IMG/VR virus record: IMGVR_UViG_3300010218_000004
Span: 1-64,000 of that record
Length of the DNA stretch: 64,000 bases
DNA from: a virus
Direction: 5' to 3' (one strand)
In this document: positions 37,272 to 56,268 of the stretch, one piece after another
Layout: every line of letters begins with the position of its first letter
Position numbering within the stretch: the first letter of the stretch is position 1
Translations under genes and position numbers: made by a program
Notes under the pieces: generated by a model
What the model was told of the DNA's origin: nothing
The model's database searches: none
The model's input: only the letters and a program-made list of their open reading frames with translations

Positions 37272-37866
37272 CGGACGAGTGAGGGCGGGTTCTGCTCGGG
37301 TACTCGGTCTGCGGCCGCCCTGCCCCACGGGGCCACGGTCTCGGAGGACGTGGCGCGTGCACTCCTGTAGTGGGGGGTCGCCGGGCGGGGAGCCGGCCCG
37401 TAGAAATACTCGACGGTAACTCTCGCATTGGAGATCGTCGTGGATGGTCGGGCTTTTACCTATAACCGGCCGGGCGCCCCGGAAAAACCTGAACGGCGGT
37501 GCGTATGTGTATCCGGCACCTATAGAGAAGGTCACGGTTCCCTAATCGCCGCTTGGCCGTCCGCAAATGATCATCGCGGGTGACGCATATGCCCGGAACG
37601 CGGGATTCCGGTGACTCTGCGACGTTCGGTCAAACGCGGAGAGTTAGCGTCGAGATGCCCCTCCCGTCACCCTTGGCCAAAGCTGCCACGGGTTACCGCA
37701 GGTAGCAGTATCAGTGGTGCGTCTGCGTAGTCACCACGACGGCGACCGACGCGGTCCAGTCACGACCGCGCCGAGACCGGGCGGCTATTTCCCTGCAAAT
37801 CTCGCAGGCAAATGAGATCGGAAAGTAGTCCATGATGTGTGTCGTTCACGGTTCAACTCGGGGGGC

Positions 37867-38721: not shown

Positions 38722-38812
38722 CACCCGCCCCATGACCGGGGTGGCGGGCAACACGCCCCCGATGCCCGCCACCCCGTCACCGCACCACCGTTCACCCATC
38801 CCGGAGGCACCC

Positions 38813-39868
38813 ATGCCCGCACACATCAGACGGCCCGTCATACGGCTCGCTGAACATCCCGTCACCACCGACGCCCTCCTCACGCACGTCCGCGACACGC
38901 ACTCCGCCGACCACCCCCGCATGCCGCTGTGGGAGCGCCTCATCCGCAACACCGGCGTCCGGGAGCGGCGTTGGGCCCGGCCGCTCCCGGAGGCGACCGT
39001 GCGTACCGGTGTCGCCCACCGCGCCAAGACGGCGTTCGGCGATGCTCTCGACCTCGCCGAAACCGCCGCCCGCGAGGCCCTCGACGTCGCCGGACTCGAC
39101 CCCGGCGACGTCGACGCCCTCGTCACCAGCCACACCACCAGCTGGACCGTGCCCGGCATCGACGTCCACCTCGTCGAACGCCTCGGCCTCCGCCCCACCC
39201 TGGCCCGCATGCCACTGTCCACCCTCGCCTGCGCCGGCGGCGCCACCGCCCTCATCCGCGCCCTCGACTACACCCGAGCCTGGCCCGGCGCCCGCGTCCT
39301 CGTCGTCGTCGCCGAAACCCTCTCGACCATCTACCACGACACGGAGACCACCCCGGAGTCGATGATCTACCGGGGCCTCTTCGGGGACAGTGCCGGAGCG
39401 TGCATCGTCACCGGCATCCACCCCGGCCACCCGGCCCCTGACGGCGGCGGGTTCCTCGTCGAACGCCCCTACGAACTGACGATGCCGGGCACCCGCGACC
39501 GCTACTGGGGCGCCATCGACGGCGACGGCCTCCACTTCCTCTCCACCCGCGCCGCCGCCCGCGCGGCCGCCGACGCCATCCCGTACATCGCCGACTGGCT
39601 CGGCGATCGCCCCGTCGAGTGGACGGTCGCGCACCCCGGCGGGCCCCGCATCATCGACGACTTCGTCAACGGCCTCGGCCTCGACGCGGAGAAGGACGGC
39701 CGGCACTCCCACGCCTCCCTCGCCGAGAACGGCAACCTCGGCGGCGTCGCCGTCCTCGACGTCCTCCGCCGCACCCACGACGACCCACCCGCACCCGGCG
39801 CCTCCGGTGTGCTCGCCGGGTTCGGCCCGGGCTTCAACGTCGCCGCCCTACACGGCTCCTGGACCTGA
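38813..39868 (+). CDS. Type III polyketide synthase (chalcone/stilbene synthase superfamily, RppA-like)
   Basis: Cys-His-Asn triad contexts are present: STLACAGGATAL, FGDSAGACIV, AHPGGPRIID, NGNLGGVAVLDVL and GFGPGFNV. ATG 38813 follows a GGAGG RBS (ATG 38732 is the alternative). Confidence 0.85.
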   Translation: MPAHIRRPVIRLAEHPVTTDALLTHVRDTHSADHPRMPLWERLIRNTGVRERRWARPLPEATVRTGVAHRAKTAFGDALDLAETAAREALDVAGLDPGDVDALVTSHTTSWTVPGIDVHLVERLGLRPTLARMPLSTLACAGGATALIRALDYTRAWPGARVLVVVAETLSTIYHDTETTPESMIYRGLFGDSAGACIVTGIHPGHPAPDGGGFLVERPYELTMPGTRDRYWGAIDGDGLHFLSTRAAARAAADAIPYIADWLGDRPVEWTVAHPGGPRIIDDFVNGLGLDAEKDGRHSHASLAENGNLGGVAVLDVLRRTHDDPPAPGASGVLAGFGPGFNVAALHGSWT

Positions 39869-41872: not shown

Positions 41873-43435
41873 ATGCCCGCCGTCTACATCGACACCCGTG
41901 ACGTCCCCCTCGACGAGCTGACGCCGTTCCCCGGGAACGCCAAGCGGGGCCGCCCGGACGAGATCCTCGTCAGCCTCCGCCGTAACGGCCAATACCGCGG
42001 CCTCGTCGTCCGGCAGACCGGCGGCGCGCTCATCGTCCTCGCCGGCAACCACACGTTGCAGGCCCTCAAGGCCCACGGGCCGGGCCGCTGCGAGTACGCC
42101 GACCACGAGGACGCGCCGTGTGGCATGTGCGCGGACGGCACGTGGGACGGCACCACCGCCCGCTGCGAGATCATCGACTGCGACGACCAGGACGCGCGCC
42201 GTATCAACCTCGCCGACAACCGGCTGGCCGAGCTCGGCGGGTACGACAATGATGACCTCGCCGAACTCCTCTCCTACATGGACGGGGACTACGCCGGTAC
42301 CGGTTACAGCGAGGCCGACGTCATGCGGCTGATCACGCCGCCGGACGTCGACGACCTCCTCGACGGCGACGGCGAGGACGCGGAGCCTGCGGAGGCGCCG
42401 TCGCTCGCGGAACGGTTCCTCATCCCGCCGTTCGACGTCCTCGACGCCCGACAGGGATGGTGGCGCACCCGGAAGCGGCAGTGGCTGTCCCTCGGCATCG
42501 TGTCGGAGGTCGGCCGCGACGGGAACCTCGCCTTCGCCGACGTGTCGATGGCGGACCCGGACTACTACCGGAAGAAGGAAGAGGCGCAGCAGCAGGCAGG
42601 CCGCGCCCTGACGAACGCCGAGTTCGAGGCCGACTACTACACGCCGCTCGATACGTCATGGAGTGGCGGAACGTCGGTGTTCGACCCCGTCATGTGCGAA
42701 CTGGCCTACCGCTGGTTCTCCCCGCAGGGCGGCACGGTCCTCGACCCGTTCGCGGGCGGTTCCGTCCGCGGCCTCGTCGCCGGCATCCTCGGCCGCCCCT
42801 ACCGTGGAAACGACCTGCGGCCGGAGCAGGTGGAGTCGAACCGGGAGCAGCGCGACGCGTTCGCCCGGCGCGGCCTCCTCGCCGCCGACCCGGAATGGAC
42901 GATCGGGGACTCCGCGGACTGGGTCACCACCCTGGAGCCGGAGAGCGCCGACATGGTGTTCACCTGCCCGCCCTACTACGACCTCGAGGAGTATTCCTCG
43001 AACCCGGCCGACCTGTCGGCCATGTCATACGACGACTTCGACGCCGCGTACGCCCGGATCATCGCCGGTGCCGCCCGCGCGTTGAAGGCGAACCGGTGGG
43101 CAGTGTTCGTCGTCGGTGACGCCCGCGACAGCAAGGGTGCGCTGCACGACCTGCGCGGCTCCACGGTCCGCGCCGCGACGGCTGCGGGACTCACCTACGC
43201 CTCCGGTGGCGTCCTCGTCACCCCGGTCGGGTCCACGGCCATCATGGCCGGGAAGGTGTTCACCGCGACCCGAGGTCTCGGCCGCGTCCACCAGGACGTG
43301 CTCGTGTTCTGCAAGGGCAGCCGCTCCCTCGCCGCGCAGGCATGCGGCGACGTCGACGTCCACCTCCCCGACGGCGCCGCCGACGCGTTCGCCGATGCTG
43401 AGGACGACGACGAGAACCTTCCCGAAGCGGCTTGA
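41873..43435 (+). CDS. ParB-like nuclease domain fused to a DNA methyltransferase
   Basis: The N-terminus (LTPFPGNAKRG...VLAGNHTLQA) is ParB/Srx-like. The AdoMet motif VLDPFAGGS is followed about 75 aa later by the catalytic motif FTCPPYY. Confidence 0.8.
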   Translation: MPAVYIDTRDVPLDELTPFPGNAKRGRPDEILVSLRRNGQYRGLVVRQTGGALIVLAGNHTLQALKAHGPGRCEYADHEDAPCGMCADGTWDGTTARCEIIDCDDQDARRINLADNRLAELGGYDNDDLAELLSYMDGDYAGTGYSEADVMRLITPPDVDDLLDGDGEDAEPAEAPSLAERFLIPPFDVLDARQGWWRTRKRQWLSLGIVSEVGRDGNLAFADVSMADPDYYRKKEEAQQQAGRALTNAEFEADYYTPLDTSWSGGTSVFDPVMCELAYRWFSPQGGTVLDPFAGGSVRGLVAGILGRPYRGNDLRPEQVESNREQRDAFARRGLLAADPEWTIGDSADWVTTLEPESADMVFTCPPYYDLEEYSSNPADLSAMSYDDFDAAYARIIAGAARALKANRWAVFVVGDARDSKGALHDLRGSTVRAATAAGLTYASGGVLVTPVGSTAIMAGKVFTATRGLGRVHQDVLVFCKGSRSLAAQACGDVDVHLPDGAADAFADAEDDDENLPEAA

Positions 43436-44775: not shown

Positions 44776-46403
44776 GTGTCCAGCGACATGGACGCGCTCG
44801 CGCTCGCCGCCGACCGTCTGGAAGGCCGCAGCGCGGCCGCCGACCGCTACCCCACCCCCCACGACCTCGCCAAGGCCCTCGATCCCAAGGTGGTTCGGAC
44901 CCCGGCCCTGGCCCTCCTCGATCAGAACCTCATCGACGTCGCCGAGGGCCGCTGTAAGCGCCTCATCTGGACCATGCCTCCCCAGGAGGGAAAAGCCAGA
45001 GGGTCAGCCGCACGTTCCCGGCGTGGCTGCTGGCCCGCGACCCCGACAAGCGCATCGCGATTGCCTCCTACGAGTTGGGCACCGCCCGACGGTGGGGCCG
45101 CGCGATCCGTAACGACATCAAGGCGAACCGGGACAAGTTCGGGCTGGCCATCCGCACCGACACCTCGTCGGCGCAGGAGTGGCAGATCCAGGACCACGCC
45201 GGCGGCGTGTACTCGGTCGGTGTGCAGGGCGCCCTCACCGGCCGCCCCGTCGACGTCCTCATCATCGACGACCCGATCAAGGACCGTGCGCAGGCCGAGT
45301 CGCTGGTGTTCCGCGAGCGCGTCTGGGACTTCTGGACCGACACCGCCCGCACGCGATTCGGCCCGGACACCTGCGTGATCGTCGTCCTCACCCGCTGGCA
45401 TGAGGACGACCTCGCCGGCCGGCTCCTCGCGCAGGACGTGCGCGGCGAGTGGCGGCACATCAACATCCCCGCGGAGGCCGACCACAAGCCGGAGGAGGGG
45501 CAGACCGACCCGCTCGGTCGGGCGCCCGGCGAGTTCCTCAAGTCGGCGCGTGGCCGCACCCCGCAGGACTGGCAGGACACCCGGCACGACGTCGGCTCCC
45601 GCACGTGGACGAGCCTCTACCAGGGCCGTCCGTCCCCGGAGTCCGGCGACGTGTGGAAACGCCCCTGGTGGCGCCGCTATCAGACGCCGCTGTGGTCGCA
45701 GCATCCCGAGCACCCCGACGCGTACACGGTCGAGGAGTTCGACCAGCTCATCATGTCGTGGGACATGGCTTTCAAGGACACGAAGTCGTCCGACTATGTG
45801 GTGGGTCAGGTGTGGGGGCGGCGCGGCGCGAACGTCTACCTCCTCGACCACATCCGTAAGCGCCTGTCGTTCACGGACACCCTCGCCGCGTTCCAGGCGA
45901 TGGTGAGGCGGTGGCCGCAGGCGACGGGGAAGCTCGTCGAGGACAAGGCGAACGGCACGGCCGTCATCTCCACCCTCAAATCGAAGATCCCCGGCATCAT
46001 CGCGGTCACCCCGACCGAGTCGAAGTACGCCCGCGCGAACGCCGTTGCCCCCGTCATCGAGGCCGGCAACGCGTTCCTCCCGGAGAAGGGCATCGCCCTG
46101 TTCGACCCGGAGGAACTGATCGAAGAGGCCGCGTCGTTCCCGAACGCCACGCATGACGACCAGGTCGACGCCACCAGCCAGGCCCTGGCCTACCTCCTCC
46201 TCGACCAGACCGGCGCGCACGCGTGGATCAACCACTACCGCGCCAAGGCCGCGGCCGCCGCCGCGGACCCCGACGACACCACGGACGGCGAGGAAGGCGT
46301 GCCGGACAAACCGGCCGACCCGACCCCGCCGGCCGTACCCGTCGAGGACGCGGCCGCCGCCCGGAAACGCCTACGCGACTCCCAAGTCCGCAACCAACGA
46401 TGA
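44776..46403 (+). CDS. terL: Terminase large subunit, reading frame broken at 44988-44994 (needs a -1 shift or a 1-nt correction)
   Basis: Frame 1 gives ...RLIWTMPPQEGK. Frame 0 continues SQRVSRTFPAWLLARDPDKRIAIASYE...DVLIIDDPIKD...LTRWHEDDL (Walker-B-like and nuclease regions). The frame-0 stop at 44955-44957 prevents an upstream start in that frame. Confidence 0.85.
44777..44794. promoter_or_regulatory. Fourth TGTCCA-N6-TGGACG site, overlapping the terL start codon
   Basis: TGTCCAGCGACATGGACG has the same half-sites and spacing as O3. Confidence 0.45.
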
Positions 46404-46956: not shown

Positions 46957-48978
46957 GTGACGACTCCCGTGACGCTCGCGCTACCGCCGGCCGTCGTCAT
47001 CGCCCCGACCGGCGTGCAGGGCCTCCGCGGCAACGCCGTCCTCACCGGCAGCGGCACGCCGAGCGCGTCGACCGGCATGGACGGCGACTACTACATCGAC
47101 GTCGCCAACTACCCGACCACCGCGACCCTCTACGGGCCGCGGACGGCCGGCACCTGGCCGTCGACGGGAGTCACCGTCGGCGGAGGCGGGTCGACGGCCG
47201 GCGCGCTCCTCGCGATCAACAACCTCAGCGACCTCGGTGACGCGGCGATCGCCCGCGGCCACCTCGGCCTCGGTACGGCCGCCACCGCCGCCACCACCGA
47301 CTTCGACGCCGCCGGCGCCGCCGGGAACGCCTACAGCGGCGCCGTCTCGGACGCGGCAGGGAAGTACCGGCGCCTCCAGCCGTGGGTCTTCGACATCACC
47401 GACCACGGGGCGGTCGCGGACGGTGTCGTCGTCCACGACGGGCAGATATCCGTCGGCGTCGCAACGCTCACCTGCTCCACGAGCAGCCCGTTCCACCCCG
47501 ACCTGGTCGGCAAGCCGGTCCTCGTCCAAGGCGCGGGCACGTTCGGCGTCACCGCGTGGAAGACGACGTTCGCCTCCTACGGCGGCCCGACCAGCATGGG
47601 TCTGACCGACACCCCGCCCACGAGCATCACCGGCGCGGTCGTCGCCTTCGGAACGAACAACTACGACGCCGTCCGCGCCGCGACGGCCGCCGCCGACGCC
47701 TACCTGACGGCCGGGCACACCGTGGCGGAGGTCTACACCCCGCCGGGGGCGTTCGTCATCGACGGCCCGCTCGACACCAGCAAGGCGGGCAACGGGCAGG
47801 CCGTGTTCGGCCCGTACGTGACGACCGACGTCAAGAAGATCCTCCGGTTCCGGGGGGCCGCGTCCGGCGCCGCCGTCCGGCACTGGGACCAGTTGGTGCC
47901 GCAGTACGGCGGCTCCTGCTGGCTCTCCTTCGGGTTCTACTCGTCGACGTCGGCGCAGCTCAACGACCTCAACCTCAACGGCAACCCGGGGATCATCAGC
48001 GGTCCGAACGAGGGCACCAGCAACGGCCTCGCCTACGGTGCCAGCGCCCGGTACAGCAACGTCATGCCGGTGATCAAAAACATGACGTTCCTCGTCCCGC
48101 ACACCGCCTACGGCATCACCTACGGCGCGTTCAACCTGTACGGCTGCGCCAACGCCCACATCCAGAACGTGTCGATAGCGACCCTCGGTGTCGTCGGCGG
48201 CTCCGACTACACCACCCCCGGCACCTTCGCGACGGGCCTGTCCATCGCCTGCCTCATGCCGGCACCCGGCAACAACGACCTCAGCATCGTCGACAACCTG
48301 TCGATTCAGGGCGGCTTCACCTACGGCATCTTCTTCTCCGAACACACCCTGATCAGCCGAATCATGATCCTGTACTGCTGGTCGGCGCTCTGCGCCGTCG
48401 GCTCGTACGCGGGCAGCGTCGGCGCCGCCCACTCCATGCGGGTGCTGTCCGCGTCGGTGGAGGCGTGCACCCACGAGGTCTACATCATCGGCGTCGGATC
48501 GAACGGTGAGGGACCCCTCATCGACATCGAACTGTCGACGGAGTCCAGCACACCGAACATCGACGGGAACTCCGTGGGCGGCCTCATGGGCGCGGCCGGC
48601 CCGCTACGCCTCACCGGCCTGTTCAACACGGCCGGCGTCAGCGTCGCACACCCCACCGGAATCGAGATCATCAACGGGCAGTCTCCGCGGGCCATCGCCC
48701 GCAAGACGGCCTCGTTCACGTGCTCGCCCATCGACCGGACCCTCCTGTGCGACACCACCGGGGGCGCGATCACCGCGACCCTGCCGGACGCCGACGTCAA
48801 CCCCGTCGAGTACGTCCTGCGGAACACCGGGCCCGGCACCCTCACCGTCGCCGCGACGAACAGTCAGCTCATCTACGTCGGCACCTCCGGGGCCGTCACG
48901 GCGACCGTGGCGCCCGGCGCCGTCCTGCGCGTCGAGGCGTCCTACGACGGCACCGCGTGGGCCTGGTACGCCCTCTAA
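46957..48978 (+). CDS. Tail-fibre/tailspike-like protein with a pectate-lyase-type beta-helix (putative depolymerase)
   Basis: N-terminus GMDGDYYIDVAN...TLYGPRTAG and NLSDLGDAAIARGHLGLGTAA are actinophage minor-tail motifs. VFDITDHGAVADGVVVHDG matches the pectate_lyase_3 N-cap. Confidence 0.65.
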   Translation: MTTPVTLALPPAVVIAPTGVQGLRGNAVLTGSGTPSASTGMDGDYYIDVANYPTTATLYGPRTAGTWPSTGVTVGGGGSTAGALLAINNLSDLGDAAIARGHLGLGTAATAATTDFDAAGAAGNAYSGAVSDAAGKYRRLQPWVFDITDHGAVADGVVVHDGQISVGVATLTCSTSSPFHPDLVGKPVLVQGAGTFGVTAWKTTFASYGGPTSMGLTDTPPTSITGAVVAFGTNNYDAVRAATAAADAYLTAGHTVAEVYTPPGAFVIDGPLDTSKAGNGQAVFGPYVTTDVKKILRFRGAASGAAVRHWDQLVPQYGGSCWLSFGFYSSTSAQLNDLNLNGNPGIISGPNEGTSNGLAYGASARYSNVMPVIKNMTFLVPHTAYGITYGAFNLYGCANAHIQNVSIATLGVVGGSDYTTPGTFATGLSIACLMPAPGNNDLSIVDNLSIQGGFTYGIFFSEHTLISRIMILYCWSALCAVGSYAGSVGAAHSMRVLSASVEACTHEVYIIGVGSNGEGPLIDIELSTESSTPNIDGNSVGGLMGAAGPLRLTGLFNTAGVSVAHPTGIEIINGQSPRAIARKTASFTCSPIDRTLLCDTTGGAITATLPDADVNPVEYVLRNTGPGTLTVAATNSQLIYVGTSGAVTATVAPGAVLRVEASYDGTAWAWYAL

Positions 48979-48994: not shown

Positions 48995-49474
48995 ATGCTC
49001 GTCCCCCAGCCGATAGAGGCGCTCGCACCGGAGCCGGCCGAGGAGCTGCCCGCCGAGCTGCGGATGTTCGCCGCCGCCCGGGCCATGGCCGTCGACGGCC
49101 TCGTCACCTCCGCCCCCGAATGCGGGGCCTGCGGGGCCGACGCCGTCGTCAACTGGATGCGCCGCCCCACGGACGACGAGGTCGCCGAGGTCATCGCGAC
49201 CGAGGAGGAACGGCGCGCCCAGCTCCTCCTCCTCGCCGACCCGCAGGCCCCGGCCCCCGACTTCGGGCCCCTGCCGACCGGCGACGGCATGACGCGCACC
49301 GTGTACGCGTGCGTCACGCACGCCATCCCACTCGACGCCGCGTCCCGCGTCCACGCCAAGGAGTGCACGGCGCCGGCCACGGCCTGCACGTGCACCCCGG
49401 AACCCCCGCCCCACGCGCCGCTCGACGGTGGCACGACGGGCCCGCAGCTCCCCGACACCTGGATCAGCGGTTGA
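48995..49474 (+). CDS. Hypothetical protein
   Basis: ATG after a GGGAG RBS. Tail of ORF 48506..49474. Confidence 0.55.
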   Translation: MLVPQPIEALAPEPAEELPAELRMFAAARAMAVDGLVTSAPECGACGADAVVNWMRRPTDDEVAEVIATEEERRAQLLLLADPQAPAPDFGPLPTGDGMTRTVYACVTHAIPLDAASRVHAKECTAPATACTCTPEPPPHAPLDGGTTGPQLPDTWISG

Positions 49475-49507: not shown

Positions 49508-52500
49508 ATGGGCCTCCTCGACCGCGTCAGCAAGGTGTTCGGGAACCGTCCGCCGGCCGACGTGCAGGCCGCTACGGACGTCGCGCAGATGGGGCCGACG
49601 AGCCCGTTCTCCCCGGGCGAGCCGATCAGCCCGTACGACGGGTACAGCCGCACGCCGCGGAGCAAGGACTACGTCACCGGGTACAACATCTCGGCGCGGC
49701 CGAAGGCGCATGAGCGGGTCAGCTACGAAACGCTGCGCGGCCTCATCGAGGCGTACGACGTCGCCCAGATGTGCATTTGGCACCGCATCGACTCCATCCG
49801 CGCCCTCGACTGGTCCCTCGTCCCGGCGCGCGGGTTCAGCGGCGACGCGGATGCAGCGATCGCGCAGGGCATGGCCGTCCTCGCGAAGCCGGACCGTAAG
49901 ACCCCGTTCGGGTCGTGGCTCGCCACCTGGCTGTACGACATCCTGGCGTACGACGCCGGCGCCCTCTACCGGCTCCGCAACCGCGGCGGCCGCGCGATCG
50001 GCCTCCGCGTCGTCGACGGCACGACGATTGCGCCGCTGCTCGACTACTGGGGCGACTCCCCGGCCGACCCGGCGCCGGCGTACGTGCAGTACGCGCAGGG
50101 CCTGCCCTGGTCGTGGCTCACCCGGAAAGACCTCATCTACGTCCCGTTCCGGCCCCGCTCCAACTCGCCGTATGGGTACGCCCCGCTTGAGTCGATCTTG
50201 CTCAATGCGAATACAGACTTGCGGTTTCAGGCGTACTTCCTCCAGCGGTTCACCGACGGGAACATCCCGGAGGCGTTCGCGTCGGCGCCGGAGACATGGA
50301 CGCCGCAGCAGATCGAGGAGTTTCAGGGCTACTGGGACGCCGCCATGTACGGCGACCAGGCCGCGAAGCACCAGATCCGATGGATGCCGGGCGGCGGCAA
50401 GATCGAATGGAGCAATGAGAAGGAGTTCTCCGACGCCTTCTCCCTGTTCCTGATGAGGAAGACGTGCGCGGCCTACCACATCGTGCCCGCCGACCTCGGG
50501 TTCACGGAGTCCGTCAACCGGTCCTCCGGTGAGACGCAGGCGGACGTGCAGCACCGCGTCGGCGACCTGCCCCTCGTCACCCACGTGCAGGACGTCCTCA
50601 CCGACTTCCTCCAGCACGACATGGGCCTCCCGGTCGAGTTCAGTTTCGACACCGGGCAGGAGAAAGAGGACCGGCTCACCCTCGCGCAGGCGTGGCAGAT
50701 CTACATTGAGTCCGGCATGGCCAGCCCCGACGAGGGCCGCGAGGAACTCCTCGGCCTGCCCGCCGACCCGCGGCAGCCCACGCCCCGCTTCTTCAACACC
50801 AGCCGGTCCGGGCCGGTTCCACTGCTGTCCATCATGGGCCTCGGCGGCCGCATCGACCCGGAGACGTACGCGCCGGCCGACGACCAGCCCATCCCCGCGC
50901 AGCCCGCGGTCCCGGCCCCCGGCACCGTCCCGGCGTCCGGCACCACGGACGCAGCATCGGCCGCGGCCGCTGAGGACGCCTACCGGTCCAGCGTGCACGA
51001 CGCCGTCCTCGCCAAGGAGGCGGCGGCCGCGGAGGGCATCACCACCGGCACCGGCCTCCACGGCTACGACCTCGACGAGGGGGAGGACGCCGACGATGTG
51101 GCCGAGCTGACCAAGGAGATGGCCGCGTTCCGGTCGTTCCGCAAGGCCCGCCGCCGCAACGGCGTGTGGCGCGACTTCGAGTTCCGGCACGTCGACGCCC
51201 GCACCGGCCGCCGCCTCAACCAGGCCGGCCGCGCGCGGCTACGGAAGGACGCCGGTGAGATCGCCTGTGCGGGCCTCGCCGTGCAGGCCCTCGACACCGG
51301 CCGCGTCCTCATGCTCCAGCGCGCCCTCGACCCGGACGACCCGGCCGGCGGAATGTGGGAGTTCCCCGGCGGACACCTCGAGGGTGAGGAGTCCGCGATC
51401 GCGGCCGCCGCCCGCGAATGGTCGGAGGAGACCGGGCTGATCCTGCCCTTCGACCCCGAGGCCATGGCCGCCCTGGCCTTCGGCAACGGCCGCGGGTGGA
51501 CGTCCGGCATCTACGCCGGGTACGTCTACCCGATCCGTTCCGAGTCGCTCCTCGACCTCGGCCGCCGCGACCAGGTGACCAACCCCGACGACCCCGACGG
51601 AGACATCGTCGAGGCCGTCGCCTGGTGGGAGCCCGCGCAACTGCGCGGCAACCCGGCCGTCCGCCCCGAACTCCTCGACGCGCTCGACGACGTCCTCACC
51701 GCCCTCGGCAGCGAGCCGGCAGGCCCGGAGGACGGCACGGAGGCCATGTGCCCGTGCGGGATGCCCGCACGGTTCGACGCCATGGACGGCTGGCAGCACC
51801 TCGACGGCTCCCACGGACACGACGACGACGAGTCGGTGGCGGAGAAGCTGGGGTTCGCGAAGGCGGCCCACCCAAAAGGTGACGGCGGCTCCGACCGGTG
51901 GCCCGGCTGGGCGATGGACCTCAAGGCCATCGCCCACTGGACGCCCCGGATCGTCGCCGCCCTCCGCGGCTCCGTCGCCGCACGCCGCCTCGTCGACGCC
52001 TGGCTCGCCCTCAACCCCCGCTCCACCGCCTCCCGTAAGGCGGACCGGCTGCGGGAGCTGAACGGGCAGGCGCAGAAGTGGCTGGAGAAGTACGCGCCCG
52101 ACGTCGAGGCGGCCCTCACCGACGTCCTCGGCGGTGTCTACGCCGACGGCTACCTCATCGGCCTCCTGTGCGCGGAGAACGTCACCGCAGGCGCGGCCAC
52201 CGCCATCGACTGGGGGGCCTGGACGCCGGGCGACACCGCCGCCGCCCGACTCCTCGCCGGCAGCCTCGGCGACGGCCGGGGCCTCGAGGCCCTGCTCCGC
52301 GACAGCGGCGTCACCATCCGCTCTATCGCCGCGAACCGGCTCAAGGCCCTCGGCATGATCCTCGCCGACGGCGCCGAACGCGGCGACAGCGTGGACACGA
52401 TCGCCTCCGCAATCCAAGGTCTGCTGTCCAACCCGTCCCGCGCCGAGATGATCGCGACGACGGAACTCAACCGGGCCGTATCGCGGGCGAGTCTCGGCTC

Positions 52501-52690
52501 CTACATCCGCAACGGCATCGACGCCGTCGAGTGGATCAGCGCCGGAGACGGCCGCGTCTGCAACATCTGCGCCGACAACGCCGACGGCGGCCCCCGCCCG
52601 CCCGGCGACTTCTTCCCCTCCGGTGTGACCGCACCGCCCGGGCACCCCTGGTGCCGCTGCGCCCTCGTGCCCGTGATCGGAGGCCCGTGA
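49508..52690 (+). CDS. Portal protein fused to a Nudix hydrolase domain and a MuF/SPP1-gp7-like head morphogenesis domain
   Basis: 1060 aa. The N-terminal ~470 aa are portal-like by position and size. A perfect Nudix box GGHLEGEESAIAAAAREWSEETGL lies at about 51.37-51.44 kb. The C-terminus MIATTELNRA...GDGRVCNICADN...PPGHPWCRCALVPV is the MuF motif. Confidence 0.8.
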   Translation: MGLLDRVSKVFGNRPPADVQAATDVAQMGPTSPFSPGEPISPYDGYSRTPRSKDYVTGYNISARPKAHERVSYETLRGLIEAYDVAQMCIWHRIDSIRALDWSLVPARGFSGDADAAIAQGMAVLAKPDRKTPFGSWLATWLYDILAYDAGALYRLRNRGGRAIGLRVVDGTTIAPLLDYWGDSPADPAPAYVQYAQGLPWSWLTRKDLIYVPFRPRSNSPYGYAPLESILLNANTDLRFQAYFLQRFTDGNIPEAFASAPETWTPQQIEEFQGYWDAAMYGDQAAKHQIRWMPGGGKIEWSNEKEFSDAFSLFLMRKTCAAYHIVPADLGFTESVNRSSGETQADVQHRVGDLPLVTHVQDVLTDFLQHDMGLPVEFSFDTGQEKEDRLTLAQAWQIYIESGMASPDEGREELLGLPADPRQPTPRFFNTSRSGPVPLLSIMGLGGRIDPETYAPADDQPIPAQPAVPAPGTVPASGTTDAASAAAAEDAYRSSVHDAVLAKEAAAAEGITTGTGLHGYDLDEGEDADDVAELTKEMAAFRSFRKARRRNGVWRDFEFRHVDARTGRRLNQAGRARLRKDAGEIACAGLAVQALDTGRVLMLQRALDPDDPAGGMWEFPGGHLEGEESAIAAAAREWSEETGLILPFDPEAMAALAFGNGRGWTSGIYAGYVYPIRSESLLDLGRRDQVTNPDDPDGDIVEAVAWWEPAQLRGNPAVRPELLDALDDVLTALGSEPAGPEDGTEAMCPCGMPARFDAMDGWQHLDGSHGHDDDESVAEKLGFAKAAHPKGDGGSDRWPGWAMDLKAIAHWTPRIVAALRGSVAARRLVDAWLALNPRSTASRKADRLRELNGQAQKWLEKYAPDVEAALTDVLGGVYADGYLIGLLCAENVTAGAATAIDWGAWTPGDTAAARLLAGSLGDGRGLEALLRDSGVTIRSIAANRLKALGMILADGAERGDSVDTIASAIQGLLSNPSRAEMIATTELNRAVSRASLGSYIRNGIDAVEWISAGDGRVCNICADNADGGPRPPGDFFPSGVTAPPGHPWCRCALVPVIGGP

Positions 52691-53067
52691 TGTCCGACGA
52701 ACAGCGTTACGTCCTCGGTGTCGCCTACCAGGCCGGCCCCGACCCCATGATCAAGCGGGGTGCGGACGGCGGCCGCGACTACTTCTCCCCGGAGGAGTTG
52801 GAGAAGGCCGCGTGGCGGTTCCTGCAAAACGGGCCCGAGAGCGGCCTGTTCCACGCCGACGGCACCGAGGGCGCCGCCACGGTCGTCGAGTCGTACATCT
52901 ACCGCGGCCCCGACTGGGACATCGGTAACGGCGTCGTCGTCAAGGCGGGGGACTGGCTCGTCGGCGCGATCCTCGACGAACACGCCTGGCAGCTCTACAA
53001 GTCCGGGCGCGTCACCGGCTGGTCCCCGCAGGGCTCGGCGCGCCGTATCACCCCACGGAGTAGCTGA
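52690..53067 (+). CDS. XkdF-like putative prohead serine protease domain protein
   Basis: VLGVAYQAG.PD......FSPEELEKAAWRFL....GLFHADGTEGAATVVESYIY...W..G.W..G...D...W......G...G.S..G fits the XkdF (S78-like) pattern. Confidence 0.55.
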   Translation: MSDEQRYVLGVAYQAGPDPMIKRGADGGRDYFSPEELEKAAWRFLQNGPESGLFHADGTEGAATVVESYIYRGPDWDIGNGVVVKAGDWLVGAILDEHAWQLYKSGRVTGWSPQGSARRITPRSS

Positions 53068-54683
53068 TGCCCCAGACCCCCGACGCCGACCCGTTCACCG
53101 AACTCGTCGACGCCAACATCGACCGCGTCGACCTCGTCGACAAGGCCGCGAACGGCCTGCCGTTCCTCATGGCCAAGTCCGCCGAGGACGGCGGCCCGGC
53201 CGGCCTCATCGACCCGGACCTCGTCCGCGGCCTCATCGGGAAGACCGCGGCACCCGAACCGGCGGCCGCCGCCGACACGGTGACGATGACCGGCAGCCCG
53301 GGCGCGATCGCCCGACTCATCCACGAGGCCGCCGTCCGTAAGGACGCCGAGACGGCCGACCCCATCGCGAAGGACGCGGACGCCATGCCCGACACCGAGC
53401 TGGACCCCACCACGGTCCTCGCCGAGCCCACCGAGTCGGCCCCGGGCGACGCCAACACCCCCGGCAGCCCGGCGTGGGAGGCCGTCGACGCGGCCACCGC
53501 CCGCAAGTGGACGTCCATCCTGTCCCGGGCGAAGGCCGCACTCGGCGTCATGGCCGACCGTGAGGCCCTGGAGGCCGCCGCCGGCGACGACTGCGACCTC
53601 GACAACGCGTTCGAGCTCGACGACGCCGCCTGCGCCATCGACTACGCGATCAGCGTCCTCGCACCTTTCGCGGTCGATGAGGAGGCCGAGGTCGTACGCG
53701 GCACCGCCGAACTCGGCGCCGTCGGCAAGGCCCTCGCCGACCTGCCCGGGCCGCTGGAGGTCATCGAGTCCCTCGGCCAGGTGCAGAAGGCCGGCCGTGC
53801 CCTGTCCGCCGCGAACGAGCAGGCCATCCGCACGGCCGTCGAGTCCCTCCAGAAGGTGCTCGCCTCCCTCCCGGCCGCCCCCGACACCCAGGAGAGCGGC
53901 CGCCCGGTCGCCAAGAAGGAGCGCGACATGCAGCCGGAGACCGGCACCGCATCCGAGACCACCATCGAGACCCCGGCTGCGGCCGTCGTCGACCCGGTCG
54001 GCAAGGCCGACGGCGAGGGCGAGGGCAAGCCGGCGATGGTCGCCGTCTACGACGCCAAGGGCAAGCTCGTCGGCATCGTCTCCCCGGACGAGATCACCCC
54101 GATCTCCGGGGCCGACGCCGCCGAGGAGAAGCCGGAGGAGCCGGAGACGCCCGCGGCCGCGGACCTCGAGCCCGCACCGGCCGCCGCCGTCGGCACGCCC
54201 TCCGGTGAGGGCGTGGCCAAGGAGGCCGACACCCCCGCCGACCCCGACGCCGCCGCCGGCGACGTCACCAAGAGCACCACCGACACCGACACCGACTCGG
54301 ACGACGTACTCAAGAGCAGCGACCTCCGTGAGCTGGTCAAGGGCCTGCTCGACGAACACAGCGCCACTCAGGCGGCACAGCTCACCAAGACCGGTGAGGC
54401 CGTCCTGGAACTGGCGGGCGTCGTCGAGACCCTCAAGGGCCGACTCACCGCGGTCGAGGAGCAGCCCGCCGAGCCCAAGGTGTTCGCCAACGGAGCCGTA
54501 CCGCCCGCGCACATGCTGCGCGGTCAGGACCACGGCGCCGCCCCCGTCGACATGGCCAAGGCCGCCGAACTGCGCAAGGGGCTCTACAGCCACAGCGCGG
54601 GCGAGCAGAACGAGGCCGCCGTGGCCATGCAGGGCGCCGCCATCGAGGCCCTCGCGGCGATCCACCGCGGCGGCGCGCGCTAG
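53067..54683 (+). CDS. Scaffolding-like acidic protein
   Basis: ATGA coupling to the preceding gene. N-terminal VDLVDKAANGLPFL motif, very acidic and Ala/Pro/Glu-rich, lying just upstream of the capsid gene. Confidence 0.6.
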   Translation: MPQTPDADPFTELVDANIDRVDLVDKAANGLPFLMAKSAEDGGPAGLIDPDLVRGLIGKTAAPEPAAAADTVTMTGSPGAIARLIHEAAVRKDAETADPIAKDADAMPDTELDPTTVLAEPTESAPGDANTPGSPAWEAVDAATARKWTSILSRAKAALGVMADREALEAAAGDDCDLDNAFELDDAACAIDYAISVLAPFAVDEEAEVVRGTAELGAVGKALADLPGPLEVIESLGQVQKAGRALSAANEQAIRTAVESLQKVLASLPAAPDTQESGRPVAKKERDMQPETGTASETTIETPAAAVVDPVGKADGEGEGKPAMVAVYDAKGKLVGIVSPDEITPISGADAAEEKPEEPETPAAADLEPAPAAAVGTPSGEGVAKEADTPADPDAAAGDVTKSTTDTDTDSDDVLKSSDLRELVKGLLDEHSATQAAQLTKTGEAVLELAGVVETLKGRLTAVEEQPAEPKVFANGAVPPAHMLRGQDHGAAPVDMAKAAELRKGLYSHSAGEQNEAAVAMQGAAIEALAAIHRGGAR

Positions 54684-54750: not shown

Positions 54751-54771
54751 CGCATGCCCAGGAGGCACCCC

Positions 54772-56268
54772 TTGAGCGCTGCGCTCGAAAACGTCACCGA
54801 GGAGACCCTGGCGAACATCGCCAAGGCCCAGACCACCGGCATCATGGAGTCGACGGGTTTCTACTCGTACGACCTCTCCGGGCTGGTCTCCCTCATCCCG
54901 GTCGTCACCCCGTTCCGCGACCGGGTCGCCCGCGTCCGGAGCAAGGACGGTAACCCGTACGCGGTGTGGAGGGCGATCCTCGACACCACGGCCTCGCAGC
55001 CCGACCCGTCCATGGGCTTCGACTACGCGGCCAACGAGGTCATCTTCTCCGAGCAGGACTTCCAGGCGAAGTACAAGCCGACGGGCCTGGCCGGTATGGC
55101 CACGCAGGACGCGTTCGACATGGCCACCGGCTACGCCGACCCGTTCCAGGTCGCCACCTTCCAGACCCTCAACCAGGTTCTGATCGGCGACGACCGCAAG
55201 CTGATCGGCGCGCAGTCGTTCGCGCTGGCCCGGCCGGCCGCGCCGACCATCGTGCAGGCCGCGACCGGAGGCACCATCGGTGCCGCCACCGTGTACGTCG
55301 GTGTCGCCGCCCGTACCGGCTCCGGCTACTACTACGGCTCGGGCAACTCCCAGGGCAACAGCGCGTCGACCACGTTCGCGTCGGGCTCGACGAACAGCCT
55401 GACCGCGACCGTCGGCGCGGTCCGCGGCGCCGTCTGCTACGACTGGTTCCAGTCGGCGAACGGCACGACCTGGTACTACTACACGACCACCACGGTCAAC
55501 ACCGTGTCGATGACCAAGGTCATCGGCGCTGACCAGGCCCTGCCGTCGGGCATCGCGGTCCCGGACCTCACCAGCAACTGGAAGGGCGTCCTCGGCGCCA
55601 AGCCCACGTTCAACGCGGCCGCCGACAACGGCAGTGCGAACGCCAACGACTACGACGGCTTCCTGTCGACGTTGTCGGGCGACTACAACGGCAACGGCCA
55701 GTGGGTGCAGCCCGGCACCGGCACCGCGAACCCGTCGGTCTTCAAGTCGCTGGACGGCGCCGCTCTGACGCTGACCGGCGGCACCGTGGCGGAGATCGAG
55801 AACTACGTGTTCCTGCCGCTGTGGAACCAGATCAAGGCGTCTCCGACCGCGCTCATGATGAACGCGGCGCAGGCGCAGGAGATCGCGAACCTGGTCCTGT
55901 CGTCGTCGTCCGCGACTACGTTCCTCAACACCGACTCCAGCGGTCGCATCAGTGTGACCGCGGGCGGCCGGGTCGGGGAGATCGTCAACGCCCCGGCGGG
56001 CGGCGTCACCGTCCCGATCGAGGTTCACACCTCCCTGCCCCCGGGCACGATCATCGCCCGCACCGACCGGGTGCCCTTCCCCAACGCAAACATCTCCAAC
56101 GTCCTGGAGTACCGGAACCTGCGTGACTGCGCGCAGTTCGACTACGGCATCAACCGCAACGCCGGCGTTGCCGGCGGCGGTCCGCGCCGGGAGTTCGAGA
56201 TCCGGTCCGTGGGTGCGTTCGTGAACCGCGCTCCGGTCGCCATGGCGACCCTGTCCAACGTCGGCTAG
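54772..56268 (+). CDS. Major capsid protein
   Basis: TTG six nt after a GGAGG RBS (ATG 54754 is the alternative). The call rests on its position after the scaffold and on its size. Confidence 0.7.
   Translation: MSAALENVTEETLANIAKAQTTGIMESTGFYSYDLSGLVSLIPVVTPFRDRVARVRSKDGNPYAVWRAILDTTASQPDPSMGFDYAANEVIFSEQDFQAKYKPTGLAGMATQDAFDMATGYADPFQVATFQTLNQVLIGDDRKLIGAQSFALARPAAPTIVQAATGGTIGAATVYVGVAARTGSGYYYGSGNSQGNSASTTFASGSTNSLTATVGAVRGAVCYDWFQSANGTTWYYYTTTTVNTVSMTKVIGADQALPSGIAVPDLTSNWKGVLGAKPTFNAAADNGSANANDYDGFLSTLSGDYNGNGQWVQPGTGTANPSVFKSLDGAALTLTGGTVAEIENYVFLPLWNQIKASPTALMMNAAQAQEIANLVLSSSSATTFLNTDSSGRISVTAGGRVGEIVNAPAGGVTVPIEVHTSLPPGTIIARTDRVPFPNANISNVLEYRNLRDCAQFDYGINRNAGVAGGGPRREFEIRSVGAFVNRAPVAMATLSNVG

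What the first reader, a model, noticed from the sequence alone, without database searches (positions are those of the whole stretch)
49508..52690. 1060-aa portal - Nudix - MuF fusion protein
One uninterrupted ORF joins a portal-sized N-terminal region, a domain with a textbook Nudix box (GGHLEGEESAIAAAAREWSEETGL, about 51.25-51.70 kb) and a C-terminal SPP1-gp7/MuF head-morphogenesis domain (...PPGHPWCRCALVPV). Portal-MuF fusions and MuF proteins carrying cargo domains are known. A Nudix pyrophosphohydrolase embedded between the two would be built into, or delivered from, the capsid vertex. Possible roles are hydrolysis of a host nucleotide signal or NAD/ADP-ribose on entry, sanitising the nucleotide pool for packaging, or RNA decapping. 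None of these can be decided from the sequence.
Basis: partly seen in the sequence, partly recalled or inferred. Interest (0 to 1): 0.7.

Follow-up and report, generated by a model that had tools for sequence, protein, structure and literature searches.

The report
Portal protein carrying Nudix enzyme
A Streptomyces phage-like element makes one 1060-residue protein that joins its capsid portal to an intact Nudix hydrolase and a MuF head protein; this design is real but already common in public phage data, and the enzyme is probably carried inside the capsid.

Summary
ORF 49508-52690 (+) encodes 1060 aa with Phage_portal, NUDIX and Phage_Mu_F domains, all above Pfam cut-offs. It lies in a normal siphovirus head module.

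It is not new as an architecture. Cultured Arthrobacter phages Sonali and Mufasa8 have the same three-domain protein (39% identity). More than 500 public proteins and 151 IMG/VR contigs share it. Iyer et al. 2022 already described phage Nudix domains fused to MuF, portal and the prohead protease, and predicted packaging and injection.

The six Nudix-box residues are invariant in 122/122 relatives, so the enzyme is almost certainly active. The substrate cannot be assigned: the fold is generic, the weak best sequence matches are MutT/NudG-like, and every specific-enzyme (equivalog) model scores far below its cut-off.

New here:
- The Nudix module is flanked by two disordered linkers, each with a 96%-conserved lysine (K503, K785) in a hydrophobic-A-K-[A/D/E/S] tetrad.
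- Linker 1 carries a ~25-residue copy of the major capsid protein's N-terminal motif. This pairing recurs in 21/24 genome loci and 34/46 viral loci.
- With the XkdF-type prohead protease gene overlapping the stop codon, this suggests proteolytic release inside the capsid.
- Fusion partners of this Nudix clade elsewhere (an ADP-ribosyltransferase, a 2H/Acb1-like phosphoesterase, a Zeta-toxin-like kinase) suggest an injected effector.

Verdict: new member of a known kind.

The parts
49508..52690 (+). Whole ORF, 1060 aa: portal - linker - basic helices - Nudix - (Cys/His module) - linker - MuF
49727..50917 (+). Portal domain (aa ~74-470), HK97-type fold
   Evidence: Pfam PF04860 E 2.6e-20; phrog_2662 E 2e-74; Foldseek hits to portals of phage 812, RcGTA, HK97 and T5
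50993..51088 (+). Linker 1 (aa 496-527), predicted disordered. It contains K503 (96% conserved) in V-A-K-D/E, followed by G-I-T-x-x-T-G-x-x-G-Y-D-L, a copy of the capsid protein's N-terminal motif. Candidate protease site and/or capsid-targeting peptide
   Evidence: pLDDT <50 for aa 492-528; conservation; HMM pairing with the capsid N-terminus
51089..51250 (+). Two arginine-rich helices (aa 528-581), conserved and leading directly into the Nudix fold. W554, F557, F559 and K580 are invariant. Function unknown
51260..51712 (+). Nudix hydrolase domain (aa 585-735); Nudix box at nt 51371-51439
   Evidence: Pfam; box residues invariant 122/122; AF2 pLDDT 86.7, pTM 0.83; Nudix-fold neighbours
51740..51832 (+). 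Optional small beta module (aa 745-775) with C748-P-C750-G ... H764 ... H771, probably a zinc knuckle. Present in 26 of 76 family representatives
   Evidence: pLDDT 84-87; Cys/His conserved in 24-25 of the 26 members that have it
51833..51904 (+). Linker 2 (aa 776-799) with V/F-A-K785-A-x-x-P-K790-G ... W798-P-G-W801. K785-A786 is invariant even in the Arthrobacter phage proteins. Second candidate cleavage site
51905..52687 (+). MuF / SPP1 gp7-like domain (aa 800-1060), helical, with C1018-x2-C1021 ... H1046-P-W-C1049-R-C1051
   Evidence: PF04233; TIGR01641 44 bits vs cut-off 39.65; phrog_115; invariant Cys/His; inteins inserted before C1049 in 3 homologues
52690..53067 (+). Prohead protease, XkdF type (125 aa); its start overlaps the stop of the fusion gene
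   Evidence: PF14550 Peptidase_S78_2 E 9e-14; phrog_3017; ATGA overlap
53067..54683 (+). Scaffold-like protein (538 aa, Ala/Asp/Glu/Pro-rich), with four hydrophobic-A-K-[ADES] tetrads
   Evidence: position and composition; tetrad count
54754..56268 (+). Major capsid protein (504 aa). Its N-terminal motif (aa 20-43, nt 54811-54882: A-N-I-A-K-A-Q-T-T-G-I-M-E-S-T-G-F-Y-S-Y-D-L-S-G) is what is copied in linker 1
   Evidence: 43% identity, E 4e-115, to Sonali gp7 'major capsid protein'; motif HMM E 0.007 as the only non-self hit among 756 ORF segments
45075..46403 (+). Terminase large subunit, which marks the start of the packaging and head module
   Evidence: phrog_38 E 1.6e-80; megablast to actinophage terminases

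Best explanation
This is the portal protein of a temperate Streptomyces siphovirus or phage-plasmid. Its C-terminus, which in all solved portals faces the capsid interior, is extended by an enzymatically intact Nudix pyrophosphohydrolase and a MuF (SPP1 gp7-like) domain. Fusion to the portal guarantees that up to twelve copies of both are built into every procapsid at the DNA-entry vertex.

Shown: the domains, their order, the invariant catalytic residues, the disordered linkers, the conserved lysines, the capsid-like motif, and the adjoining protease gene.

Inferred: the XkdF-type prohead protease encoded by the next gene cuts at the conserved hydrophobic-A-K|[A/D/E/S] sites in the two linkers (K503, K785). 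That would leave a ~55 kDa portal, a ~31 kDa Nudix module that begins with a copy of the capsid protein's N-terminal motif, and a ~29 kDa MuF.

Further inferred: the freed Nudix, alone or with MuF, leaves the capsid with the DNA. It would then act as a first-minute effector in the new host, hydrolysing a nucleoside-diphosphate-X compound. The likeliest candidates are an NAD/ADP-ribose-derived or other nucleotide immune signal, or RNA 5' ends. The substrate cannot be determined from sequence or fold.
For: Architecture and context.

Active enzyme: G622, E628, R636, E637, E640 and E641 are invariant in 122/122 proteins down to 39% overall identity. The fold model is confident.

Capsid-interior location: SPP1 gp7 (MuF) is targeted to the procapsid interior by binding the portal and supports initiation of infection (PMC6316719). 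The same Nudix clade (41-50% identity) is fused to three different procapsid-internal proteins: portal (here, Sonali, Mufasa8), MuF plus a protease-like region in cyanophage Pam4 gp13, and the S78 protease in Streptomyces phage Gilgamesh gp52. It is also fused to a Mu-type portal (P0289). In L007 it is a free gene between the portal gene and an Alt/VIP2-like ADP-ribosyltransferase protein. Of the 150 best 50%-identity representatives of the clade, about half have recognisable portal and/or MuF modules, in several orders.

Effector character: partners in the same polypeptides are ADPrib_exo_Tox, Zeta_toxin, 2H phosphoesterase (one with a weak, sub-threshold Acb1 match) and Peptidase_S78. These are the domain types that Iyer et al. 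(PMC5512222, PMC9503650) assign to phage-head-packaged, host-injected proteins.

Cleavage: K503 and K785 are 96% conserved in linkers whose neighbours are 30-36% conserved, in a protein with only 23 Lys against 77 Arg. Both linkers have low pLDDT. The tetrad occurs 7 times in fusion, scaffold and capsid protein against 3 times in 52 other genes. The protease gene overlaps the stop codon.

Motif copy.
Against: No experiment exists for any member: no virion proteomics, no enzymology, no ejection assay were found.

If the protein is not cleaved, a portal-tethered enzyme cannot be injected.

The tetrad pattern was defined after looking at the data, so its p-value is optimistic.

The capsid residues upstream of the conserved Lys are themselves well conserved. 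That fits a structural N-arm better than a discarded propeptide, so the shared motif may be a binding element rather than a cleavage site.

The Arthrobacter phage fusions lack the linker-1 motif although their capsid proteins have it.

Nudix sits N-terminal to MuF, unlike the classical MuF-C-terminal-cargo layout.

The nearest sequence matches (MutT/NudG-like) would fit nucleotide-pool housekeeping as well as an effector role.
Confidence: 0.5

Rival explanations
1. The fusion is never cleaved. The Nudix domain stays tethered to the portal and works in the producing cell, either as free or procapsid-bound portal protein late in infection. It could, for example, destroy a nucleotide signal raised by defence systems that sense late structural proteins, or remove ADP-ribose-type adducts near the packaging vertex. 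It is not delivered to the next host.
For: A single uninterrupted ORF is kept in most of the closest relatives. Portal-MuF fusions are routinely annotated as one protein. Iyer et al. also raise the idea of countering immune processes aimed at portal or terminase. The Arthrobacter fusions lack the linker-1 motif.
Against: The conserved lysines in disordered linkers and the adjacent protease gene need another explanation. The same Nudix clade is fused to the prohead protease and to effector domains that are thought to be injected. A cytoplasmic enzyme gains little from being tied to a 12-copy structural protein.
Confidence: 0.25
2. The domain is a MutT/NudG-like housekeeping enzyme that sanitises (deoxy)nucleoside triphosphates for phage replication. 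Its fusion to the portal is an accident of gene order with no capsid-related role.
For: The best sequence matches are MutT-like proteins and NudG (3r03, 3hhj, 2rrk; NF007834, TIGR00586), with the WEFPGG signature and a NUDIX_4 hit. The element also encodes ThyX and DpdA, so it does manipulate nucleotides and DNA.
Against: All specific-enzyme (equivalog) scores are far below their cut-offs (26-39 bits against 98-245), and the matches cover only the N-terminal half plus the Nudix box. Fold neighbours are spread across RppH, Dcp2, Ap4A hydrolase, NudJ and MutT2. Recurrent, independent fusions to portal, MuF and protease in distant phages, and co-fusion with toxin-type domains, argue against an accident.
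Confidence: 0.07
3. The Nudix fold serves a structural or binding role (for example holding the DNA end or a nucleotide) and is not a working hydrolase.
For: It sits next to two arginine-rich helices and a DNA-binding-type MuF domain.
Against: Every catalytic and metal-binding residue of the Nudix box is invariant in 122 sequences. Pseudo-enzymes normally lose these residues.
Confidence: 0.04

Closest known systems
Arthrobacter phage Sonali gp3 (QAY16116.1, 'portal and MuF-like fusion protein') and Mufasa8 gp3 (YP_009885083.1, 'MutT/NUDIX hydrolase')
   Same: The same three Pfam domains in the same order in one ORF of 995-1000 aa. 39-40% identity over the whole length. The same gene order: terminase, fusion, small prohead protease, scaffold, capsid protein. 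The Nudix box and K785-A786 are invariant.
   Different: They lack the capsid-like motif in linker 1, the ~60-residue longer linker, and the Cys/His module. They are lytic-type isolates of ~60 kb, whereas this family is on ~97 kb elements and prophages.
Head-protein-fused phage Nudix domains described by Iyer, Burroughs, Anantharaman and Aravind 2022 (PMC9503650, section 3.5.2)
   Same: Nudix fused directly to MuF, portal or the capsid-processing serine peptidase, encoded in the late head module. The same inference: packaged in the head and injected.
   Different: That paper assigns such fusions to the T4 NudE clade. Here the match to T4 NudE is no better than generic (hhalign probability 84.6%, 74 columns), and the best matches are MutT/NudG-like. 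The linker lysines, the capsid-motif copy and the exact portal-Nudix-MuF order are not described in the held text.
MuF polymorphic toxins (Jamet et al. 2017, PMC5576092)
   Same: A MuF domain next to the portal is used to carry an enzymatic domain into the phage head. Temperate phages.
   Different: In those proteins the cargo is C-terminal to MuF, is a toxin, and is followed by an immunity gene. Here the enzyme is N-terminal to MuF and the next gene is the prohead protease. Nudix is not mentioned in that paper.
SPP1 gp6 portal and gp7 (MuF) pair
   Same: gp7 is brought into the procapsid interior through the portal and helps start infection (PMC6316719). Here the contact is made covalent.
   Different: SPP1 gp7 is a separate protein present in a few copies, with no enzyme attached.
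Phage T4 internal proteins (Alt, IPI-III) with a capsid-targeting sequence removed by the gp21 prohead protease
   Same: The proposed logic is the same: a short peptide directs an effector into the prohead, the head protease trims it, and the protein is injected with the DNA (T4 internal proteins are summarised in PMC9503650; the targeting-sequence and gp21 detail is from general knowledge).
   Different: Delivery here would be by covalent fusion to the portal rather than by binding the scaffolding core. The phage is a siphovirus, and the cleavage is only predicted.
Polyvalent proteins of phages and conjugative elements (Iyer et al. 2017, PMC5512222)
   Same: Other members of this Nudix clade lie in 1000-4700 aa proteins together with ADP-ribosyltransferase, 2H phosphoesterase and Zeta-toxin-like domains.
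   Different: The window protein has a single effector-type domain between two structural domains, so it is at most the simplest case.

Membership tests
Nudix hydrolase superfamily (PF00293) | Nudix box GX5EX7REUXEEXGU with the metal-binding glutamates | tested here: met
   G622-x5-E628-x7-R636-E637-W638-x-E640-E641-x-G643-L644. All six key residues are invariant in 122/122 homologues.
Nudix hydrolase superfamily (PF00293) | alpha/beta/alpha sandwich Nudix fold | tested here: met
   AF2 model pLDDT 86.7, pTM 0.83. Foldseek probability 1.00 to many Nudix structures, TM 0.5-0.65.
Nudix hydrolase superfamily (PF00293) | Mg/Mn-dependent hydrolysis of a nucleoside diphosphate linked to X | not testable with these tools
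   Needs enzymology.
MutT / NudG / other specific Nudix enzyme families (NCBIfam equivalog models) | Score above the curated equivalog cut-off | tested here: not met
   Best scores are 39.4 bits against a cut-off of 245 (NF006530), 32.7 against 156 (NudG) and 26.3 against 97.9 (MutT).
T4 NudE-like clade (the clade Iyer 2022 says is fused to head proteins) | Closer to T4 NudE than to other Nudix clades | tested here: inconclusive
   hhalign to T4 NudE: probability 84.6%, E 7e-6, 74 columns. This is no better than generic matches to MutT-like PDB entries. No phylogeny was made.
Phage portal protein, HK97-type (PF04860) | Profile match above cut-off and portal fold | tested here: met
   73.3 bits against 39.1; phrog_2662 E 2e-74; Foldseek E 1e-11 to 1e-6 to the portals of phage 812, RcGTA, HK97 and T5.
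Phage portal protein, HK97-type (PF04860) | Located in the packaging module next to terminase and head genes | tested here: met
   Terminase large subunit is at 45075-46403. Protease, scaffold and capsid genes follow directly. Two extra ORFs (673 and 159 aa) lie between terminase and portal.
Phage portal protein, HK97-type (PF04860) | Forms the dodecameric ring at one capsid vertex | not testable with these tools
   Needs cryo-EM or biochemistry.
MuF / SPP1 gp7 family (PF04233, TIGR01641) | Profile match above cut-off, with the conserved C-terminal Cys/His motif | tested here: met
   40.9 bits against 29.6; TIGR01641 44.4 against 39.65. C1018, C1021, H1046 and C1051 are invariant.
MuF / SPP1 gp7 family (PF04233, TIGR01641) | Encoded immediately downstream of the portal | tested here: met
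   Fused to it here. It is a separate short ORF in Kitasatospora prophages.
MuF polymorphic toxins | Variable toxin domain C-terminal to MuF | tested here: not met
   The protein ends 5 residues after the MuF core. The enzyme lies N-terminal to MuF.
MuF polymorphic toxins | Immunity gene immediately downstream | tested here: not met
   The next gene is Peptidase_S78_2.
Head-packaged, host-injected effector (polyvalent-protein logic) | Physically present in virions and released into the host at infection | not testable with these tools
   Only contextual support is available.

The most novel reading that the evidence does not exclude
The portal extension is a self-loading, self-releasing cargo system. 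A copy of the capsid protein's N-terminal motif in linker 1 docks the module in the procapsid, to the scaffold or the shell. The XkdF-type protease cuts at K503 and K785. The freed Nudix enzyme is then injected with the DNA and destroys a pyrophosphate-containing immune signal (for example a Thoeris-type ADP-ribose derivative) or strips RNA 5' ends. That would make it the first enzymatically defined Nudix counter-defence or host-shutoff effector delivered from a siphovirus capsid.
Probability: 0.25. Interest if true: 0.65.

Novelty: new member of a known kind. Interest (0 to 1): 0.35.

Why it matters
Phage proteins injected with the DNA act before any phage gene is expressed, so they are the earliest possible counter-defence. 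Few are known outside T4, N4 and the podovirus ejection proteins.

This Nudix clade forms 646 clusters at 50% identity with E ≤ 1e-30. About half of the 150 best representatives are visibly fused to portal and/or MuF, and others are fused to a prohead protease. No member has been tested.

Two cultured, genetically tractable Arthrobacter phages carry the same fusion, so the question can be tested directly. The predicted cleavage sites and the capsid-motif copy give concrete, cheap experiments: virion mass spectrometry and K-to-A mutants. If confirmed, the linker motif could also be used to load foreign proteins into actinophage capsids.

Tried and rejected
1. Assigning a substrate. PDB sequence and profile searches, NCBIfam, and Foldseek against PDB and BFVD give only generic Nudix similarity, so no assignment is made.

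2. Membership of the T4 NudE clade. hhalign to T4 NudE is weak and generic, so this is left inconclusive.

3. An idea that the basic motif upstream of Nudix (aa 537-560) lies downstream of Nudix in Sonali and Mufasa8, which would imply independent insertion. The pairwise score equals the shuffle mean and the profile gives E ~0.05. Not supported.

4. A second copy of the linker-2 motif elsewhere in the window: none was found.

5. PLSDB search for the plasmid relatives. There are no full-length hits, only 13%-coverage Nudix-region matches on 114-130 kb Streptomyces plasmids annotated 'NUDIX domain-containing protein'.

6. Supplementary tables of Iyer 2022, to see whether Sonali or Mufasa8 are listed: these are not held.

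7. Literature searches for virion proteomics of Sonali, Mufasa8, Pam4 or portal-MuF fusions: nothing relevant was found.

8. An assembly artefact or frameshift as the explanation of the long ORF: rejected because most of the closest homologues share it.
Full report
OBSERVATION. The ORF is exactly as described: 49508..52690, plus strand, ATG start, 1060 aa, no interruption. It has an AGGAGG ribosome-binding site about 8 nt upstream. Its TGA stop overlaps the ATG of the next gene. Codon-position GC (0.70/0.52/0.93) is typical of real genes in this 72% GC window.

Pfam finds three domains, each above its curated cut-off:
- Phage_portal, aa 86-413, E 2.6e-20.
- NUDIX, aa 596-714, E 6e-14.
- Phage_Mu_F, aa 951-1053, E 4e-10.

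PHROGs agrees: portal phrog_2662 at E 2e-74, minor head protein phrog_115, and MutT/NUDIX phrog_1198. NCBIfam adds TIGR01641 (SPP1 gp7) above its cut-off. The Nudix box G622-x5-E628-x7-R636-E637-W-x-E640-E641-x-G643-L644 is a perfect match to the consensus.

CONTEXT. The gene lies in an ordinary siphovirus late module:
- terminase large subunit, 45075-46403;
- a 673-aa tail-fibre-like protein and a 159-aa ORF;
- the fusion;
- a 125-aa XkdF-type prohead protease, 52690-53067 (PF14550, E 9e-14);
- a 538-aa acidic, Ala/Pro-rich scaffold-like protein;
- the capsid protein, 54754-56268;
- adaptor, tail tube and tape measure.

The 504-aa protein is 43% identical (E 4e-115) to Sonali gp7, annotated as major capsid protein.

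The rest of the window carries DpdA, a YhhQ-like transporter, ThyX, a ParB/methylase-like gene and a type III polyketide synthase. Close relatives lie on ~95-99 kb contigs. One of these is labelled a plasmid of Streptomyces graminifolii and is syntenic. Other relatives lie inside chromosomes. So the element is a temperate phage, possibly a phage-plasmid.

IS THE ARCHITECTURE NEW? No.
- tblastn against GenBank phages finds full-length matches in Arthrobacter phages Sonali and Mufasa8.
- Their gp3 proteins (995 and 1000 aa) have the same three Pfam domains in the same order. They align end to end at 39-40% identity with an invariant Nudix box.
- GenBank calls Sonali gp3 'portal and MuF-like fusion protein'. 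RefSeq calls Mufasa8 gp3 'MutT/NUDIX hydrolase'.
- The protein search returns 515 proteins at E ≤ 1e-10. The best 120 are nearly all PF04860 + PF00293, with or without PF04233. They come from Streptomyces, Kitasatospora, Streptacidiphilus and soil metagenomes.
- Scans found 23 loci in GTDB genomes and 151 in IMG/VR.
- Iyer et al. [quoted passage not shown]
- I found no experimental work on any member. Nudix is absent from the MuF polymorphic-toxin paper.

ANATOMY. A full-length AlphaFold2 model built on 76 homologues (mean pLDDT 73, pTM 0.41, as expected for beads on a string) gives these segments:
- portal, aa ~74-470;
- a disordered stretch, aa 492-528 (pLDDT < 50);
- two arginine-rich helices, aa 528-581, running straight into the Nudix fold;
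- Nudix, aa 585-735;
- a small beta module, aa 745-764;
- a short low-confidence linker, aa 786-793;
- an all-helical MuF domain, aa 800-1060, ending in the C-x2-C ... H-P-x-C-R-C motif.

Foldseek matches the N-terminal part to solved portals: phage 812, RcGTA, HK97 and T5. In those structures the C-terminal crown faces the capsid interior (general knowledge). Everything after residue ~470 should therefore be inside the head.

The beta module has C748-P-C750-G ... H764 ... H771. These are conserved in 24-25 of the 26 family representatives that possess it, out of 76 in total. It is probably an optional zinc knuckle.

Inteins in some homologues are inserted just before C89 of the portal and just before C1049 of the MuF motif. 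This fits with those residues being functionally essential.

THE NUDIX DOMAIN. In an alignment of 120 homologues plus the two Arthrobacter proteins, G622, E628, R636, E637, E640 and E641 are invariant (122/122). So are D596, R599, Q604, R605, D611, G615, E618 and P620. A domain-only model is confident (pLDDT 86.7, pTM 0.83).

Its structural neighbours are spread over the superfamily at TM 0.5-0.65: an uncharacterised Rhodospirillum Nudix (3r03), BdRppH, the Dcp2 catalytic domain, Ap4A hydrolase, NudJ and MutT2. Viral predicted structures give nothing closer.

Sequence and profile searches rank MutT-like proteins and NudG first. However, they align only the N-terminal half plus the box. All NCBIfam equivalogs are far below their cut-offs. 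Comparison with T4 NudE is weak: hhalign probability 84.6%, 74 columns. I therefore cannot confirm the NudE-clade assignment made in the literature, and I do not assign a substrate.

WHAT THE CLADE IS ATTACHED TO.
- The nearest phage relatives of the domain (41-50% identity) are themselves head-protein fusions. Streptomyces phage Gilgamesh gp52 is Peptidase_S78 + NUDIX + a ~300-aa tail, directly upstream of the capsid gene. Cyanophage Pam4 gp13 is MuF + NUDIX + a protease-like region, directly downstream of the portal.
- An exhaustive profile search of 1.84 billion cluster representatives finds 646 clusters at E ≤ 1e-30. The 150 best have a median length of 924 aa, with the domain at every possible position.
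- With HMMs built from this family, about half of those 150 show portal and/or MuF modules. The orders seen are portal-Nudix-MuF, portal-Nudix, MuF-Nudix, portal-MuF-Nudix and Nudix-MuF.
- Pfam on ten of the remainder shows co-fusion with an ADP-ribosyltransferase toxin domain, a Zeta-toxin-like kinase, Peptidase_S78, 2H phosphoesterases (one portal-2H-Nudix protein has a weak, sub-threshold Acb1 match) and a Mu-type portal.
- In contig L007 the domain is a free 263-aa gene. It sits between a 1584-aa portal and an 1118-aa protein ending in an Alt/VIP2-like ADP-ribosyltransferase.
- Not every free-standing copy is in a head module.
- In six Kitasatospora genomes the ORF stops after Nudix, and only a 129-aa MuF core follows as a separate ORF.

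The constant feature is co-assembly with procapsid-internal proteins. The particular fusion partner varies.

NEW DETAIL: THE LINKERS. Lysine is rare in this protein (23 Lys against 77 Arg). Even so, K503 and K785 are each 96% conserved, although their surroundings are only 30-36% conserved. K785-A786 is invariant even in the Arthrobacter proteins. Both lysines lie in low-confidence linkers, on either side of the basic-helix + Nudix (+ Cys/His) unit. Both are in a hydrophobic-A-K-[A/D/E] tetrad.

Downstream of K503 is a conserved G-I-T-x-x-T-G-I-x-G-Y-D-L motif. I built an HMM of aa 496-527 and searched all 756 six-frame ORF segments of the window:
- The only non-self hit is the N-terminus of the capsid protein (A-N-I-A-K-A-Q-T-T-G-I-M-E-S-T-G-F-Y-S-Y-D-L-S-G). 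Its E-value is 0.007, and the next best hit is at 0.6.
- The pairing recurs in 21 of 24 genome loci (1680 segments).
- It recurs in 34 of 46 eligible IMG/VR loci, and two more have the capsid hit just outside my distance window (4065 segments). There are almost no hits elsewhere.
- In Sonali and Mufasa8 the capsid N-termini match (E 2e-3 and 1e-7), but the portal fusions do not.

So the motif belongs to this capsid family, and the Streptomyces-type portal extension has acquired a copy.

The tetrad occurs twice in the fusion (exactly at K503 and K785), four times in the scaffold-like protein, and once in the capsid motif. It occurs only 3 times in 52 other genes (Fisher p 1.8e-4). That pattern was chosen after inspection, so the p-value is only indicative.

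MECHANISM. Shown: a portal with an interior extension that carries an active-site-intact Nudix and a MuF domain; flexible linkers with conserved lysines; a capsid-motif copy; and a translationally coupled prohead protease gene.

From established knowledge, SPP1 gp7 reaches the procapsid interior by binding the portal and promotes the start of infection. MuF domains also carry cargo thought to be injected (PMC6316719; PMC5512222).

Inferred: the protease cuts after K503 and K785. The shared motif is either part of the recognition site or a docking peptide for the scaffold or shell. The Nudix fragment is then ejected with the DNA, alone or with MuF, and hydrolyses a nucleotide-type target at the very start of infection.

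The partner domains (ADP-ribosyltransferase, 2H/Acb1-like, Zeta-toxin-like) favour a conflict role: an NAD/ADP-ribose-derived or other nucleotide signal, or RNA 5' ends. They favour this over pool sanitation, but that is guilt by association.

Counter-points:
- The capsid residues upstream of the lysine are also conserved, which suits a structural N-arm better than a discarded propeptide.
- The Arthrobacter fusions lack the motif.
- Without cleavage there can be no injection.

VERDICT. The architecture is a new member of a known and abundant, but experimentally untouched, kind. The added value here is fourfold:
- evidence that the enzyme is under strong constraint;
- evidence that this Nudix clade is systematically tied to procapsid-internal proteins and effector domains;
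- two concrete predicted processing sites;
- the capsid-motif copy.

All of these are testable in cultured Arthrobacter phages. Interest is moderate (0.35).

Noticed in passing
window 9051-10531 (+): A Vut_1/YhhQ-family transporter gene (PF02592, E 7.5e-12) lies directly upstream of, and overlaps, a DpdA gene (PF23859, E 4e-56). YhhQ is known as a queuosine-precursor transporter (general knowledge). The pair suggests that the element imports preQ0-type bases and puts 7-deazaguanine into its own DNA.
   Followed up: partly
window 37837-39868 (+): An MmyB-like regulator (HTH_31 + MLTR_LBD) is followed by a type III polyketide synthase (chalcone/stilbene synthase N and C domains). This is a biosynthetic cargo gene pair on a phage-like element. 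GC drops to 0.658 at 36-38 kb just upstream.
   Followed up: partly
window 15937-16722 (+) and 41873-43435 (+): ThyX (PF02511, E 1e-39), and a 520-aa protein with a marginal DNA-methylase hit (PF01555, 26.0 bits against a cut-off of 26.7). The 492-aa counterpart on the S. graminifolii plasmid locus L003 has weak ParB_N and faint methylase hits.
   Followed up: no
window 46957-48978 (+) and 48995-49474 (+): A 673-aa protein with weak tail-fibre PHROG hits and a 159-aa Cys-rich ORF sit between the terminase and the portal, an unusual place for such genes. L003 has an 880-aa ORF at the same position.
   Followed up: partly
relatives of the window protein; L003: Many close relatives lie on contigs of 95-99 kb in isolate genome assemblies. 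One is a 99,246-bp record labelled as a plasmid of Streptomyces graminifolii with the same gene order. Others are inside chromosomes. The family may be phage-plasmids as well as integrated prophages.
   Followed up: partly
homologues P0047, P0062, P0093, P0083, P0081, P0111 (mapped to window aa 1048/1049, 88/89, 172, 248/249): Insertions of about 350-410 residues interrupt the portal and MuF domains at invariant sites: before C89, before T249, and before C1049 of the HPxCRC motif. Four of these proteins have intein/Hint/LAGLIDADG Pfam hits; P0047 and P0093 are inferred from an identical ~370-aa insertion at the same site. P0046 instead has a 271-aa extension after MuF.
   Followed up: partly
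window 51740-51832 (aa 745-775 of the fusion): An optional C-P-C-G ... H ... H mini-module lies between Nudix and MuF. It is confidently predicted as a small beta structure, is present in 26 of 76 family representatives, and has conserved Cys/His residues. It is probably a zinc knuckle of unknown role.
   Followed up: yes
L010 6001-9059 (Kitasatospora sp. prophage): In six Kitasatospora genomes the portal-Nudix ORF ends after Nudix (~780 aa). About 330 bp without a good ORF follow, then a 129-aa MuF core ORF. This is either a degenerate prophage lineage or a natural split of the fusion.
   Followed up: partly
L007 193-11152 (ENA contig, 104,660 bp): An uncultured phage has terminase, a 1584-aa portal, a free 263-aa Nudix of this clade, and an 1118-aa protein ending in an Alt/VIP2-like ADP-ribosyltransferase. 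This is the same order as the fused domains, but as separate genes.
   Followed up: partly
window 53067-54683 and 52690-53067: The PHROG family 'head maturation protease' phrog_3017 is split here. Its profile positions 48-154 match the 125-aa protease, and positions 4-32 match the N-terminus of the next gene, the 538-aa scaffold-like protein. This suggests a rearranged protease-scaffold pair.
   Followed up: no
L008 1-7612 (JGI contig, 75,933 bp): A free-standing Nudix of this clade lies two genes after a 2057-aa fused RNA polymerase beta/beta'-like protein, so not every member is in a head module.
   Followed up: no
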